Of a stretch of 64,000 bases of DNA, positions 15,915 to 16,720 are shown one piece after another. The notes below the pieces were generated by a model. The model was given only the letters and a program-made list of their open reading frames with translations, had not been told where the DNA came from and ran no database searches. Both the position numbers and the translations under genes were made by a program. Origin of the DNA: a virus (lineage: Duplodnaviria; Heunggongvirae; Uroviricota; Caudoviricetes); IMG/VR virus record IMGVR_UViG_2778261457_000003, positions 2,217 through 66,216 of that record. One strand, given 5' to 3'. Position 1 is the first letter of the stretch; each line of letters opens with the position of its first letter.

Positions 15915-16720
15915 ACACAACAGGTAAGGGTATTTTGCGACGTCGGAGATCGCCGTGCTTGGCAGAGGGTTCGAATCCCTACGAAGTACCCTTACCGTTG
16001 TGATGAATGCGCAGGCTGATGCGCGAAAGACATTGCAGCTATTGCGGAAAAGAGCTGTTCGGCGGGGCAATTAAACGCCCGTGAGAGTCTGAAATAACCG
16101 CAAGCCGGAGATCAGCACCGGTCATCACAACACAACAGGTAAGGGCATTCTCCCTTATGGGGCTTGGCTTAAATGCATCGAGTGCTCTTACCGTTGTGAT
16201 GAAGTGCAGCTCTTTGAAGCAACCAGAAGATAAGCATCTGGCTTCACAACATAAACCGCAGGAACGACCAATAAACGGTAGTCCGTATGGAGAACACCCC
16301 GTTGAGGAAGAGGCCTGGCCGGAACCGTAACCGGCACTACAACGTTGAGAACACTGGCGTAACGGGGTCATATCCCAATCTACGAATAAATGTTGCGTTG
16401 CAGCGTGACAACCAGTGTTCTCAACATTGTGGTGAATGCACAGGCTGATGTGCCGCAACTACAGTAGTGCGCGCTTTGCGGGGCTTGCTACAACCCTGTG
16501 TCGGAGTTCAGCACCGACCATCACAGTTTGATTCTCTGGCATGAGCATAACGCTGAAATAAGTCCAGTCTGGTGCGGCCCGATCACCCGCCGTTAGCTCC
16601 ACGAAACGGAGCACGTAACAGGTAAGAGCATTCTCCTGTAACGGGTTCATATCCCAATCTACAGGTCCACCAGGAATGCTCTTTCCGTTGCGGTGAATGC
16701 GGCTAAGCGCACGCGGAACA
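15915..16720 (+). repeat. array of four related structured repeat modules (long hairpin + conserved CGTTGYGRTGAATGC box + short covarying hairpin); candidate tRNA-derived or sRNA elements
   Basis: modules begin near 15923, 16138, 16343, 16620; shared blocks AACAGGTAAGRGCATTCTCC, GTAACGGGKTCATATCCCAATCTAC, GATCAGCACCGGTCATCAC; T-arm-like gggttcgaatccc / gggttcatatccc segments; no convincing ORF on the + strand. Confidence 0.55.

What the first reader, a model, noticed from the sequence alone, without database searches (positions are those of the whole stretch)
15915..16720. Array of four related structured repeats with covarying hairpins downstream of tRNA-Asn/tRNA-Thr
Immediately after tRNA-Thr there are four modules (starting near 15923, 16138, 16343, 16620). 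Each has a long imperfect hairpin (e.g. aggtaagggta...tacccttacc; gttgagaacactgg...ccagtgttctcaac), then a conserved CGTTGYGRTGAATGC box, then a short hairpin that shows compensatory changes between copies (gcgca/tgcgc in copy 1 versus gcaca/tgtgc in copy 3). Modules also contain T-arm-like segments (agggttcgaatccct, gggttcatatccc) and a shared GATCAGCACCGGTCATCAC block. Conservation is at the nucleotide and structure level, not the peptide level, and ORFs called on the minus strand here look like artefacts of reading through the repeats. This suggests a family of structured RNAs or tRNA-derived elements (the tyrT-operon rtT repeats are a loose precedent), or protein-binding sites. If the canonical P1 annotation places small protein genes (plp/upl) here, the repeats may overlap them.
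Basis: seen in the sequence. Interest (0 to 1): 0.7.

Follow-up and report, generated by a model that had tools for sequence, protein, structure and literature searches.

The report
tRNA-derived structured RNA array in P1
The stretch after two tRNA genes in this P1-like phage is not the two small protein genes (plp, upl) annotated there but a co-transcribed array of long processing hairpins alternating with tRNA-shaped, anticodon-less RNAs, which belong to a large, mostly uncatalogued family found in prophages across Proteobacteria, including E. coli K-12.

Summary
Window 15915-16810 holds four modules, and a fifth, degenerate one lies upstream of tRNA-Asn. Each module is a long hairpin (A) followed directly by a multi-helix element (B).

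B is closed by a 7-9 bp stem. It has a 5' hairpin (GCGCA-GGCUGA-UGCGC), a variable insert, and a 3' hairpin (GCCGG-AGAUCAGCA-CCGGC) that abuts the closing stem. That is the layout of a tRNA cloverleaf without its anticodon arm.

Across 80 distinct copies, 92.6% of cells pair, 16 of 24 pairs change on both sides, and 0 of 500 shuffles match this. The two loops kiss by Watson-Crick pairs, shown by compensatory changes such as GGCUGA:UCAGC to GGUCGA:UCGAC.

Some prophages carry, in the B position, a tRNA-like RNA with true D- and T-arms and the same acceptor stem. This points to tRNA ancestry.

B4 resembles Rfam STnc100, but below its threshold. Canonical B has no Rfam family.

The K-12 Qin dicF region has an A-type hairpin where the published RNase III cut maps, and a B4-type element before dicB.

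plp and upl look spurious.

Most likely mechanism: RNase III and tRNA-processing enzymes cut the ban-operon leader into stable scaffold RNAs of the STnc100/PasD kind. The trans-acting role is inferred.

The parts
15484..15550 (+). A0: extra A-type hairpin upstream of tRNA-Asn (GGTAAGGGCGCTG...CAGCGTCCTTTCC), preceded by CACAAC-A like the other A copies
   Evidence: read from the sequence; the 15-nt 5' end shared with A1/A2 also recurs at this position in P1, Ro157c2YLVW, OP279344 and P7
15551..15760 (+). B0: degenerate B-like spacer. It lacks the GGTGAATGC box but ends with a P4-like hairpin GCCGGAGACGTACCCGGC 4 nt before tRNA-Asn
   Evidence: read from the sequence; no significant match to model R1, so membership is weak
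15761..15836 (+). tRNA-Asn (GTT)
   Evidence: ARAGORN; Rfam tRNA 72.3 bits
15839..15914 (+). tRNA-Thr (TGT). Its trailer ACACAAC can pair with GTTGTG after A1
   Evidence: ARAGORN; Rfam tRNA 72.9 bits; trailer pairing appears in the full-length fold
15923..15996 (+). A1: long hairpin, 15-bp stem in the fold, with a canonical T-arm-like AGGGTTCGAATCCCT inside. With the flanks it extends to a helix of about 20 bp (15916-16002)
   Evidence: z -3.90, 0/200 shuffles; inverted repeat I4
15997..16131 (+). B1: canonical tRNA-shaped element. P1 is 15997-16005 with 16123-16131; P2 hairpin 16009-16024; variable 78 nt; P4 hairpin 16104-16122
   Evidence: model R1 46.5 bits, E 4e-11; 98.5% identical over exactly these 135 nt in lambdoid phage mEp460; found in 1060 of 5426 complete E. 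coli genomes; absent from canonical P1
16138..16192 (+). A2: long hairpin (GGTAAGGGCATTC...GAGTGCTCTTACC)
   Evidence: z -4.35, 0/200 shuffles
16193..16250 (+). B2: short B copy with P1, a decayed P2, a P4 hairpin CCAGA-AGATAAGCA-TCTGG and the strand CTTCACAAC
   Evidence: model R1 with filters off: 28.4 bits, E 1.8e-7; this copy was not in the training set
16251..16343 (+). X2: spacer ending in a P4-like hairpin GCCGGAACCGTAACCGGC (16318-16335) plus the strand ACTACAAC (16336-16343), which pairs with the strand after A3
   Evidence: read from the sequence; 23-nt arms 16335-16357 / 16412-16434, 91% complementary (I1)
16344..16425 (+). A3: long hairpin with the interior motif ACGGGGTCATATCCCAATC. 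The extended helix is 23 bp
   Evidence: z -8.32; the motif is found in more than 120 viral contigs
16426..16527 (+). B3: canonical B. P2 is GCACA/TGTGC; P4 16500-16518; closing strand 16519-16527
   Evidence: model R1 44.1 bits, E 2e-10
16528..16620 (+). X3: spacer ending in the small hairpin GCTCCACGAAACGGAGC (16596-16612) plus the strand ACGTAAC. The same hairpin-plus-strand precedes A hairpins in lambdoid prophages
   Evidence: read from the sequence; recurrence in L158, L189, L128 and L131
16621..16686 (+). A4: long hairpin with the interior motif ACGGGTTCATATCCCAATC
   Evidence: z -5.17; direct repeat D4, 96% identical to the A3 interior
16687..16806 (+). B4: diverged, STnc100-like B forming the 5' leader of tciA. 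Its close relative lies between dicF and dicB in E. coli K-12
   Evidence: Rfam STnc100 43 bits, below the cut-off of 47, E 2.6e-7; K-12 copy 34.4 bits; fold z -2.1
16842..17276 (+). tciA (TerB family), the first protein gene downstream of the array
   Evidence: Pfam TerB, E 2e-14; P1 annotation
16039..16650 (-). Minus-strand ORFs corresponding to the P1 genes plp (16039-16458) and upl (16459-16650). Judged spurious
   Evidence: no Pfam family; ORF ends change with module content and upl is missing from D6 and P7; no feature annotated by RefSeq over 15915-16131 in P1-like plasmids

Best explanation
The region is the untranslated, + strand leader of the C1-controlled ban operon. It is an island of non-coding RNAs built from three kinds of parts that are transcribed together and then cut apart.

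(1) Real tRNAs: Asn and Thr.

(2) A hairpins. With their flanking complementary strands (CACAAC...GTTGTG) they form double-stranded helices of about 19-23 bp and serve as RNase III processing sites.

(3) B elements. These are tRNA-derived, anticodon-less cloverleaves with four parts:
- a 7-bp acceptor-like stem;
- a D-arm-like hairpin;
- a variable insert of 30-300 nt where the anticodon arm would be;
- a T-arm-like hairpin that abuts the 3' acceptor strand.
The tRNA elbow is replaced by a 5-bp Watson-Crick kissing interaction between the two loops.

After processing, by RNase III in A and by the tRNA 5'/3' machinery at B and at neighbouring tRNAs, the B elements would accumulate as stable scaffold RNAs that display their variable inserts. 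They are relatives of the Hfq-dependent prophage sRNAs STnc100 and PasD. The last copy, B4, stays attached as the 5' leader of tciA.

Shown here: the structures, their conservation and covariation, the tRNA topology and the tRNA intermediates, the co-orientation with the operon, and the weakness of plp and upl as genes.

Inferred: which nucleases act, that discrete B RNAs accumulate in P1, and that they act in trans.
For: Context:
- The window is a P1-like phage. The array lies between Pban/Op72 and tciABC-tRNA-ban on the + strand.

Structure of B:
- 80 distinct cores give 92.6% paired cells, 16 of 24 pairs changed on both sides, 113 such cells and 0 of 500 shuffles. Slid controls give 26-50% paired.
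- The kissing helix is 97.5% paired. Its compensatory sets are GGCUGA:UCAGC, GGUCGA:UCGAC (three loci), GUGCGA:UCGCA and GGUUGA:UCAAC.
- The strand test gives 48 G.U cells against 20 A.C cells.

tRNA link:
- L094, L115 and L106 carry, directly after an A hairpin, an RNA with canonical D- and T-arms, the acceptor UGUGGUG/CACCACA and a roughly 68-nt insert. It scores 40 bits on Rfam tRNA against a cut-off of 29.
- In a Massilia genome, B sits exactly between two tRNA genes.
- 23 of 165 distinct B copies have a same-strand tRNA within 300 nt, against 2.2% at random positions. Seven have a tRNA starting 4-19 nt after B.
- In D6 and P7 a tRNA-Ser follows a B directly.

A and B as a unit:
- In 61 of 92 distinct B copies a long hairpin ends 0-3 nt before B.
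- The 5' flank of A covaries with the strand after A: 16 of 27 loci with a non-consensus strand show at least 8 nt of complementarity, against 9% for mismatched loci.

RNase III:
- In K-12 Qin an A-type extended hairpin lies at about L279 2172-2259.
- The published RNase III-dependent 190-nt DicF species (bioRxiv 10.1101/2023.04.14.536235) would start at 2435-190+1 = 2246, inside the 3' strand of that hairpin.

Relation to known sRNAs:
- B4 scores 43 bits on STnc100.
- PasD and STnc100 are reported as related, and PasD as Hfq-dependent (PMC8550237; preprint 10.64898/2026.05.13.724894).

Module shuffling among P1 relatives occurs at repeat boundaries.
Against: - No transcript or processing data for this region of P1 were available.
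- RNase P recognition of an elbow built from Watson-Crick pairs is untested.
- A 3' CCA is enriched near the end of B (37 of 85 against 12 of 85 in a control window) but is not at a fixed position, and it is absent from the P1 copies.
- Unlike PasD and STnc100, the P1 copies have no intrinsic terminator, so Hfq binding in the usual way is not assured.
- The strand after A can pair with either the upstream or the downstream complementary strand. The long A helix and the closing stem of B are therefore mutually exclusive, and the order in which they form is a guess.
- My choice of 3' partner when parsing B favoured closing-stem pairing slightly (offsets of -6 to -2 nt were tried).
- B0 and B4 fit the core model poorly.
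- The K-12 cut position rests on a gel size of 190 nt.
Confidence: 0.6

Rival explanations
1. The elements act only in cis. The hairpins and tRNA-shaped elements punctuate the polycistronic ban transcript. They set mRNA ends, protect the long untranslated stretch from Rho and exonucleases, and tune translation of the next gene (tciA here, dicB in Qin). The excised pieces have no function of their own.
For: B4-type elements lie directly before a start codon both in P1 (tciA) and in K-12 (dicB), about 35 nt upstream. The K-12 copy has a closing stem of about 28 bp, z -4.8. Flanking genes are otherwise unrelated, 75 clusters among 88, as expected for a general-purpose processing module. The P1 copies have no terminators.
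Against: A cis-only role does not explain the strict conservation of the P2 and P4 sequences and the kissing loops across Beta- and Gammaproteobacteria. It also does not explain why relatives (PasD, STnc100) accumulate as Hfq-dependent sRNAs with targets (PMC8550237), or why the inserts are so variable yet retained.
Confidence: 0.22
2. The competing pairings form a co-transcriptional switch, like a riboswitch or an antitermination device. The strand after A can pair either with the upstream strand or with the strand that closes B, and the choice decides whether RNA polymerase reads on into the downstream genes.
For: Both partners covary with the middle strand. 19 of 92 distinct B copies are followed within 100 nt by an intrinsic terminator. 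In mEp460 the element sits where N/nutL or HK022 putL would be, between the repressor gene and the early-left genes, before a terminator. A strong terminator lies upstream in P1 at 15266-15295.
Against: No terminator follows any copy in the window. The element bears no resemblance to the roughly 70-nt two-stem put RNA (PMC9378689). Many copies lie after Q-like genes or between tRNAs, where no switch is needed. The conserved bases are in helices and kissing loops, not in a junction pocket.
Confidence: 0.08
3. The B elements are tRNA mimics that act as decoys or sponges for host tRNA-targeting defence nucleases or tRNA-binding factors. They would complement the phage's real tRNAs.
For: tRNA-like architecture and ancestry. 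Co-location with phage tRNA genes. Wide spread in prophages of many Proteobacteria.
Against: They lack an anticodon arm, which is the usual target of such nucleases, and no defence-related gene is linked to them. Nothing here tests this idea.
Confidence: 0.06
4. plp and upl are real small protein genes on the minus strand, and the repeats are a by-product of them.
For: Open frames of 139 and 63 aa exist and are annotated in P1.
Against: No Pfam family. The ORF ends differ in every relative, and upl is missing from D6 and P7. Conservation follows RNA helices, with compensatory changes, in phages that lack these ORFs. All 3 substitutions seen are non-synonymous. The canonical plp overlaps the tRNA-Thr gene. 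Both are non-essential by CRISPRi (PMC10695390).
Confidence: 0.03

Closest known systems
STnc100 (Rfam RF02076) and the related PasD sRNAs of lambdoid prophages
   Same: The architecture is the same: a closing stem, GGUGAAU, a 5' hairpin, a variable middle and a 3' hairpin next to the closing strand. B4 aligns to model positions 31-147 at 43 bits. The prophage context is the same, including a TerB gene neighbourhood.
   Different: B4 is below the gathering score, and B1-B3 give no hit at all. The P1 copies are internal to an operon and lack the 3' terminator of the described sRNAs. In the papers I could read, the tRNA topology, the kissing loops and the wide distribution are not described; nearby tRNA-like hits are read there as integration-site remnants.
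tRNA (Rfam RF00005)
   Same: A 7-bp acceptor-like stem, 3 nt, a D-position hairpin, a T-position 5-bp hairpin abutting the 3' acceptor strand, and loop-loop contact between the two hairpins. B occupies tRNA slots in tRNA arrays. Intermediates with true D- and T-arms exist.
   Different: No anticodon arm, non-canonical D and T loops, a Watson-Crick elbow and no fixed CCA. Neither ARAGORN nor the Rfam tRNA model detects it.
RNase III processing hairpins of polycistronic phage and prophage transcripts (dicBF operon of Qin; from memory also T7 early RNA and the lambda N leader)
   Same: Irregular helices of about 20 bp between functional units of one transcript. The K-12 homologue lies where the RNase III-dependent 5' end of the 190-nt DicF species maps.
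   Different: Cleavage of the P1 copies has not been shown. The A hairpins also carry conserved interiors (ACGGGNUCAUANCCCAAUC, or T-arm-like hairpins) that a plain processing site would not need.
Stable RNAs matured by tRNA enzymes: P1/P7 C4 and P4 CI RNAs, T4 'species 1 and 2' RNAs in its tRNA cluster, mascRNA from MALAT1, engineered tRNA scaffolds (all from memory)
   Same: The idea is the same: a tRNA-like fold lets cellular tRNA enzymes release a non-tRNA product from a longer transcript, and the anticodon position carries a payload.
   Different: No sequence relation was tested except C4, which does not match here. Processing of B by RNase P is only inferred.
rtT repeats of the E. coli tyrT operon
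   Same: Repeated non-coding units directly after tRNA genes in one transcript.
   Different: No Rfam rtT match. The units here are composite, structured and widespread in phages.

Membership tests
STnc100 (RF02076) | Score at or above Rfam's gathering threshold (47 bits) | tested here: not met
   B4 scores 43.0 bits, E 2.6e-7. B1, B2 and B3 give no match even at E up to 10. The K-12 relative scores 34.4 bits.
STnc100 (RF02076) | Consensus fold: closing stem enclosing a 5' hairpin, a variable middle and a 3' hairpin | tested here: met
   The cmscan alignment of B4 to model positions 31-147. All four copies fold into the same layout.
STnc100 / PasD sRNAs | Independent small transcript ending in an intrinsic terminator; Hfq-dependent | tested here: not met
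   No terminator-like site lies in 15915-16840 on the + strand. Hfq dependence cannot be tested with these tools.
tRNA (RF00005) | Detected by tRNA models, with an anticodon arm and canonical D and T loops | tested here: not met
   ARAGORN and Rfam find only the three real tRNAs. Relaxed ARAGORN gives only noise.
tRNA (RF00005) | 7-bp acceptor stem with the T-position hairpin stacked directly on its 3' strand, and D-loop/T-loop contact | tested here: met
   Pairs 3-9 of P1 are 99-100% paired while the outer two pairs are weak. P4 abuts the closing strand with 0 nt between them. The loop-loop helix is 97.5% paired and shows compensatory changes.
Canonical B class (my model R1) | Match to the covariance model built from 80 distinct cores | tested here: met
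   B1 scores 46.5 and B3 44.1 bits; their cores were in the training set, but the search used the full sequences. B2 scores 28.4 bits and was not in the training set. B4 reaches only 10.8 bits, and B0 gives nothing.
RNase III processing site | Double-stranded helix of about two turns (around 20 bp) | tested here: met
   A3 extended arms are 23 nt and 91% complementary. A1, A2 and A4 have 13-15 bp stems plus a 6-bp flank pairing.
RNase III processing site | Cleavage in vivo that depends on rnc | not testable with these tools
   Support is only by homology. The K-12 A-type hairpin covers the inferred 5' end of the RNase III-dependent 190-nt DicF.
HK022 put-type antiterminator RNA | About 70 nt, two stem-loops, just downstream of an early promoter | tested here: not met
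   B is a 60-400 nt multi-helix junction. The P1 copies lie more than 700 nt from Pban. The put description is in PMC9378689. No direct sequence comparison was made.
Protein-coding genes plp / upl | Conserved reading frame and a recognisable family | tested here: not met
rtT (tyrT operon repeats) | Match to the Rfam rtT model | tested here: not met
   Assuming rtT is among the Rfam 15 families (not checked), no such hit appears in the scan at E up to 10.

The most novel reading that the evidence does not exclude
The B element defines a large, uncatalogued class of tRNA-derived scaffold RNAs in proteobacterial phages and prophages; P1, lambdoid phages and K-12 Qin all carry relatives, though K-12's copy is the diverged B4/STnc100 type rather than a canonical B. 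In this class the tRNA elbow has been rebuilt as a Watson-Crick kissing complex and the anticodon arm has been replaced by an exchangeable cargo. The cell's tRNA and RNase III machinery excise these RNAs from phage operons. STnc100 and PasD would be two named members. This would be a natural counterpart of the engineered tRNA scaffold, and perhaps of the unexplained stable RNAs in T-even tRNA clusters.
Probability: 0.4. Interest if true: 0.8.

Novelty: new variant of a known kind. Interest (0 to 1): 0.62.

Why it matters
- It replaces two long-standing hypothetical genes of phage P1 (plp, upl) with a defined set of RNA elements.
- It links them to the dicF-dicB leader of E. coli K-12 and to the prophage sRNAs STnc100 and PasD, whose origin and fold were unclear.
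- It shows that these belong to a much wider tRNA-derived family that Rfam does not hold. Canonical copies occur in about a fifth of complete E. coli genomes and in many Beta- and Gammaproteobacteria.
- If the scaffold model is right, it describes a general way in which phages make and exchange small RNAs, by cassette swapping between conserved cores.
- It gives concrete, testable ends, cleavage sites and compensatory mutations.

Tried and rejected
- **Known ribozymes or riboswitches.** The CUGAUG...GAAA in B1 looked hammerhead-like. However, the CUGAUG lies in a hairpin loop that pairs with the other loop, and Rfam gave no ribozyme or riboswitch match.
- **HK022 put antiterminator.** The position in mEp460 suggested it, but the size and fold differ.
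- **tmRNA or Y-RNA-like.** Only sub-threshold hits, caused by the real tRNAs.
- **A hairpins as decayed tRNAs.** ARAGORN at default settings finds none; at relaxed settings it gives noise.
- **Encoded 3' CCA as proof of tRNA-like processing.** It is enriched but not positioned, so I use it only as a hint.
- **A specific linked protein.** Flanking genes fall into 75 clusters among 88.
- **Literature search for the core sequences.** It found nothing. A search for tRNA-like lambdoid sRNAs found nothing relevant.
- **Codon-position test of plp and upl.** Only 3 substitutions were available, so it is uninformative on its own.
- **Formal covariation count for the A stems.** Not done, because stem registers differ between loci and the columns would not be homologous.
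- **Cross-phylum reading of the genome scan.** About 17 chance matches are expected for an 18-nt pattern in that collection. Only 73 of 120 loci also have the 3' core, and these are nearly all Proteobacteria.
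Full report
**Where we are.** The window is a P1-like phage or plasmid. The query region is 96-99.7% identical to P1, RCS47, JL22 and relatives. 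In the P1 record the region lies downstream of the C1-controlled promoters P1ban and P2ban (operator Op72) and a 'dicF-like region'. It lies upstream of tciA-tciB-tciC, tRNA-Ile and ban, all on the + strand. P1 annotates plp (125 aa) and upl (63 aa) on the minus strand across it. ARAGORN and Rfam confirm tRNA-Asn at 15761-15836 and tRNA-Thr at 15839-15914.

- The conserved box occurs four times.
- The four long hairpins fold far better than shuffles: z -3.9 to -8.3, with 0 of 200 shuffles as good.
- The whole 926-nt stretch folds better on the + strand (z -7.3) than on the minus strand (z -4.9).
- The two core motifs each have 2 matches in the 64 kb window, against 0.03 and 0.00 expected by chance.

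**Anatomy.** Each module consists of two elements.
- A is a hairpin with a 13-15 bp stem and an interior of 25-55 nt.
- B starts 0 nt after A and consists of:
  - a closing stem, P1 (GUUGYGRUG with CAYCRCAAC);
  - the three bases AAU;
  - hairpin P2 (GCGCA GGCUGA UGCGC);
  - a variable stretch;
  - hairpin P4 (GCCGG AGAUCAGCA CCGGY), which is directly followed by the 3' strand of P1.
- Coordinates:

| Module | A | B | Trailing spacer |
|---|---|---|---|
| 1 | 15923-15996 | 15997-16131 | none |
| 2 | 16138-16192 | 16193-16250 | X2 16251-16343 |
| 3 | 16344-16425 | 16426-16527 | X3 16528-16620 |
| 4 | 16621-16686 | 16687-16806 | none |

- X2 and X3 each end in a small hairpin plus a strand complementary to the strand that follows the next A.
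- A fifth A hairpin (A0, 15484-15550) and a decayed B0 lie upstream of tRNA-Asn. The array is therefore longer than reported.

**The modules behave as units in evolution.**
- Canonical P1 lacks B1 and A2.
- P7 and D6 have another B, followed directly by a tRNA-Ser and then another A.
- SJ46 has an A3/A4 hybrid.
- Ro157c2YLVW has a tRNA-Tyr and an insertion.
- B1 alone, over exactly its 135 nt, is 98.5% identical in lambdoid phages such as mEp460. It occurs in 1060 of 5426 complete E. coli genomes, with 719 chromosomal and 478 plasmid places and no annotated feature under the listed matches.

- I parsed 92 distinct B copies, 88-397 nt long. The closing stem varies freely but stays complementary.
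- A gapless alignment of 80 distinct cores gave:
  - 92.6% of cells paired;
  - 16 of 24 pairs with changes on both sides;
  - 113 such cells;
  - 0 of 500 shuffles reaching any of the measures;
  - 26-50% paired in the slid controls.
- Pairs 3-9 of P1 are essentially always formed and the outer two are weak, so the closing stem is effectively 7 bp.
- G.U cells outnumber A.C cells 48 to 20, which fits the + strand.
- Caveat: when locating the 3' strand I tried five offsets and kept the best, which slightly favours P1.

**The two loops pair.** A scan that forced a change in the P2 loop found true copies in which the P4 loop had changed to match:
- GGCUGA:UCAGC becomes GGUCGA:UCGAC in three different loci;
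- it becomes GUGCGA:UCGCA in one locus;
- it becomes GGUUGA:UCAAC in one locus.
- Three loci with GGAUGA carry one uncompensated A.G mismatch.

In the alignment this 5-bp helix is 97.5% paired.

**B is shaped like, and probably descended from, a tRNA.** The order of parts is that of a cloverleaf without the anticodon arm, with the elbow made of Watson-Crick pairs:
- a 7-bp stem;
- 3 nt;
- a hairpin;
- a variable region;
- a 5-bp hairpin abutting the 3' strand of the stem.

Direct support comes from several observations.
- In prophage loci L094, L115 and L106, the B position (right after an A hairpin) holds an RNA with a canonical D-arm (GCUC AAAUGGAUA GAGC), a canonical T-arm (GCGGG UUCAAAU CCCGU) and the same acceptor as B (UGUGGUG/CACCACA).
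- That RNA has an insert of about 68 nt in place of the anticodon arm.
- It scores 40 bits on Rfam tRNA, against a cut-off of 29.
- In a Massilia genome, B lies exactly between two tRNA genes.
- 23 of 165 distinct B copies have a same-strand tRNA within 300 nt, against 2.2% at random positions in the same loci. Seven have a tRNA that starts 4-19 nt after B.

B itself is not a tRNA. ARAGORN and Rfam do not detect it, and a 3' CCA is only loosely enriched.

**Relation to catalogued RNAs.**
- Only B4 matches an Rfam family: STnc100, at 43 bits against a cut-off of 47.
- Canonical B gave no match at E up to 10 in the window and in mEp460, and none at E up to 1 in eight diverse genomes.
- My own model finds B1 and B3 in the window and nothing elsewhere in the 64 kb.
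- With filters off it also finds B2 (28.4 bits) and, weakly, B4.
- STnc100 and PasD are described as related prophage sRNAs, and PasD as Hfq-dependent. Their function is open, and nearby tRNA-like hits are read there as integration remnants.

- Nearly all are Enterobacterales or other Gamma- and Betaproteobacteria.
- One is an alphaproteobacterium, and a few are metagenome bins of other phyla.
- About 17 chance hits are expected for the pattern alone.

**A hairpins.**
- In 61 of 92 distinct B copies, a hairpin spanning 34-108 nt (mostly 55-100) ends 0-3 nt before B.
- The sequence just 5' of A is again CACCACAAC-like. It covaries with the strand after A: 16 of 27 loci with a non-consensus strand show at least 8 complementary bases, against 9% for mismatched loci.
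- The helix can therefore extend to about 19-23 bp, but only at the expense of B's P1.
- E. coli K-12 gives a functional clue. In Qin, between ydfC and dicF, an A-type extended hairpin folds at about L279 2172-2259.
- The published RNase III-dependent 190-nt DicF would begin at 2246, in the 3' strand of that hairpin.
- Right after the dicF terminator, K-12 has a B4-type element with a closing stem of about 28 bp (z -4.8) that runs to about 35 nt before the dicB start. It is not annotated.

**The flanks of B are otherwise unspecific.** There are 75 protein clusters among 88 downstream genes. Several B copies lie after cI-like repressors, several after what look like late-gene (Q-type) regulators, and several before what look like holin genes, judged by eye from their sequences. 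19 of 92 are followed by a terminator.

**plp and upl.**
- Neither has a Pfam family.
- The plp-like frame is 139 aa here, 135 aa in D6, 123 aa in P7 and 125 aa in P1, with different ends in each.
- upl is missing from D6 and P7 and is 136 aa in another P1 isolate.
- The canonical plp overlaps tRNA-Thr.
- All three substitutions seen are non-synonymous.
- CRISPRi scored both genes non-essential.
- The conservation that exists is explained by RNA pairs in phages that lack these frames.

**Mechanism proposed.** The ban-operon leader is transcribed as one RNA. RNase III cuts the extended A helices, which frees the strand after A to close B. RNase P and the 3' tRNA enzymes trim the real tRNAs and probably the B elements. 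The B elements then persist as compact scaffolds that carry variable inserts. B4 remains as the tciA leader.
- The structural part is shown here.
- The nucleases are inferred from architecture and from the K-12 homologue.
- A trans-acting role is inferred from PasD and STnc100.

**Rivals.**
- A purely cis processing and insulation role.
- A read-through switch built on the competing pairings.
- A tRNA-decoy role.
- Real plp and upl genes, which is unlikely.

Noticed in passing
L279 (E. coli K-12 MG1655 NC_000913.3) 2441-2600, between dicF and dicB: An unannotated B4/STnc100-like element (34.4 bits) with a closing stem of about 28 bp fills the dicF-dicB intergenic region and ends about 35 nt before the dicB start codon. 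It is very similar to window 16687-16806 upstream of tciA.
   Followed up: partly
L279 about 2172-2259 (K-12 Qin, between ydfC and dicF): An A-type extended hairpin (CCAUAAC-GC-GAAAGCGCAUGG...CCGUGCGCUUCC-GGUUGUGG). The 5' end of the published RNase III-dependent 190-nt DicF species would fall at 2246, in its 3' strand.
   Followed up: partly
window 15204-15305: The 'dicF-like region' of the P1 annotation ends in a strong intrinsic terminator (stem 15266-15288, then a run of T). It lies between Pban and the tRNAs, so transcripts must read through it to reach the array. Rfam's DicF model does not match here, although the flanking sequence resembles the K-12 sequence upstream of dicF.
   Followed up: partly
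L004 (phage mEp460) 2697-2785, and more than 80 distinct IMG/VR loci: A three-way-junction hairpin holds the invariant interior ACGGGCUCAUAACCCAAUC. Its outer stem covaries (ACAAAACAGAGAAGAGCA / ACGCAACACACAAGAGCA / GGGCACAACAGAAAAGGGCA and their partners). It sits right after a terminator and just before the first early-left gene of many lambdoid prophages, followed by GUGGAGAAAC. No Rfam family matches it.
   Followed up: partly
L094 1800-1925; L115 (minus strand); L106 4364-4488: tRNA-like RNAs of about 125 nt with canonical D- and T-arms but an insert of about 68 nt in place of the anticodon arm. They are conserved between loci, with compensatory changes in the acceptor and T stems.
   Followed up: partly
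L094 2190-2238, and the sequence downstream of B in L157, L192, L194, L221 and L243: In lambdoid early-left leaders, B is often followed by a DicF-like sequence with a terminator (Rfam DicF 29 bits in L094). The same building blocks (DicF, A, B, tRNA) therefore recur in P1 and in lambdoid leaders, in a different order.
   Followed up: no
window 15997-16131 versus L004 2502-2636: A 135-nt cassette is 98.5% identical between a P1-like phage and unrelated lambdoid phages, with unrelated flanks. One closing-stem pair differs by a compensatory change (A-U here, G-C there). This suggests cassette exchange by recombination at the conserved cores.
   Followed up: partly
L289 3517-3593: The Rfam family isrJ (Hfq-binding RNA, 58.9 bits) lies about 100 nt upstream of a canonical B in a Pseudocitrobacter prophage. 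C4 and isrK lie a few kb from the A-motif site, on the opposite strand, in L087 and L098.
   Followed up: no
window 17551-17626: ARAGORN calls this tRNA-Met (CAT). The P1 record annotates it as tRNA-Ile2 (ileX-like), which would need lysidine modification.
   Followed up: no
window 16157-16330 (+): A 57-aa plus-strand ORF across A2-B2-X2 is annotated as a hypothetical protein in P1 isolate OP279344. It has no Pfam family and, like plp, runs through the RNA modules.
   Followed up: partly
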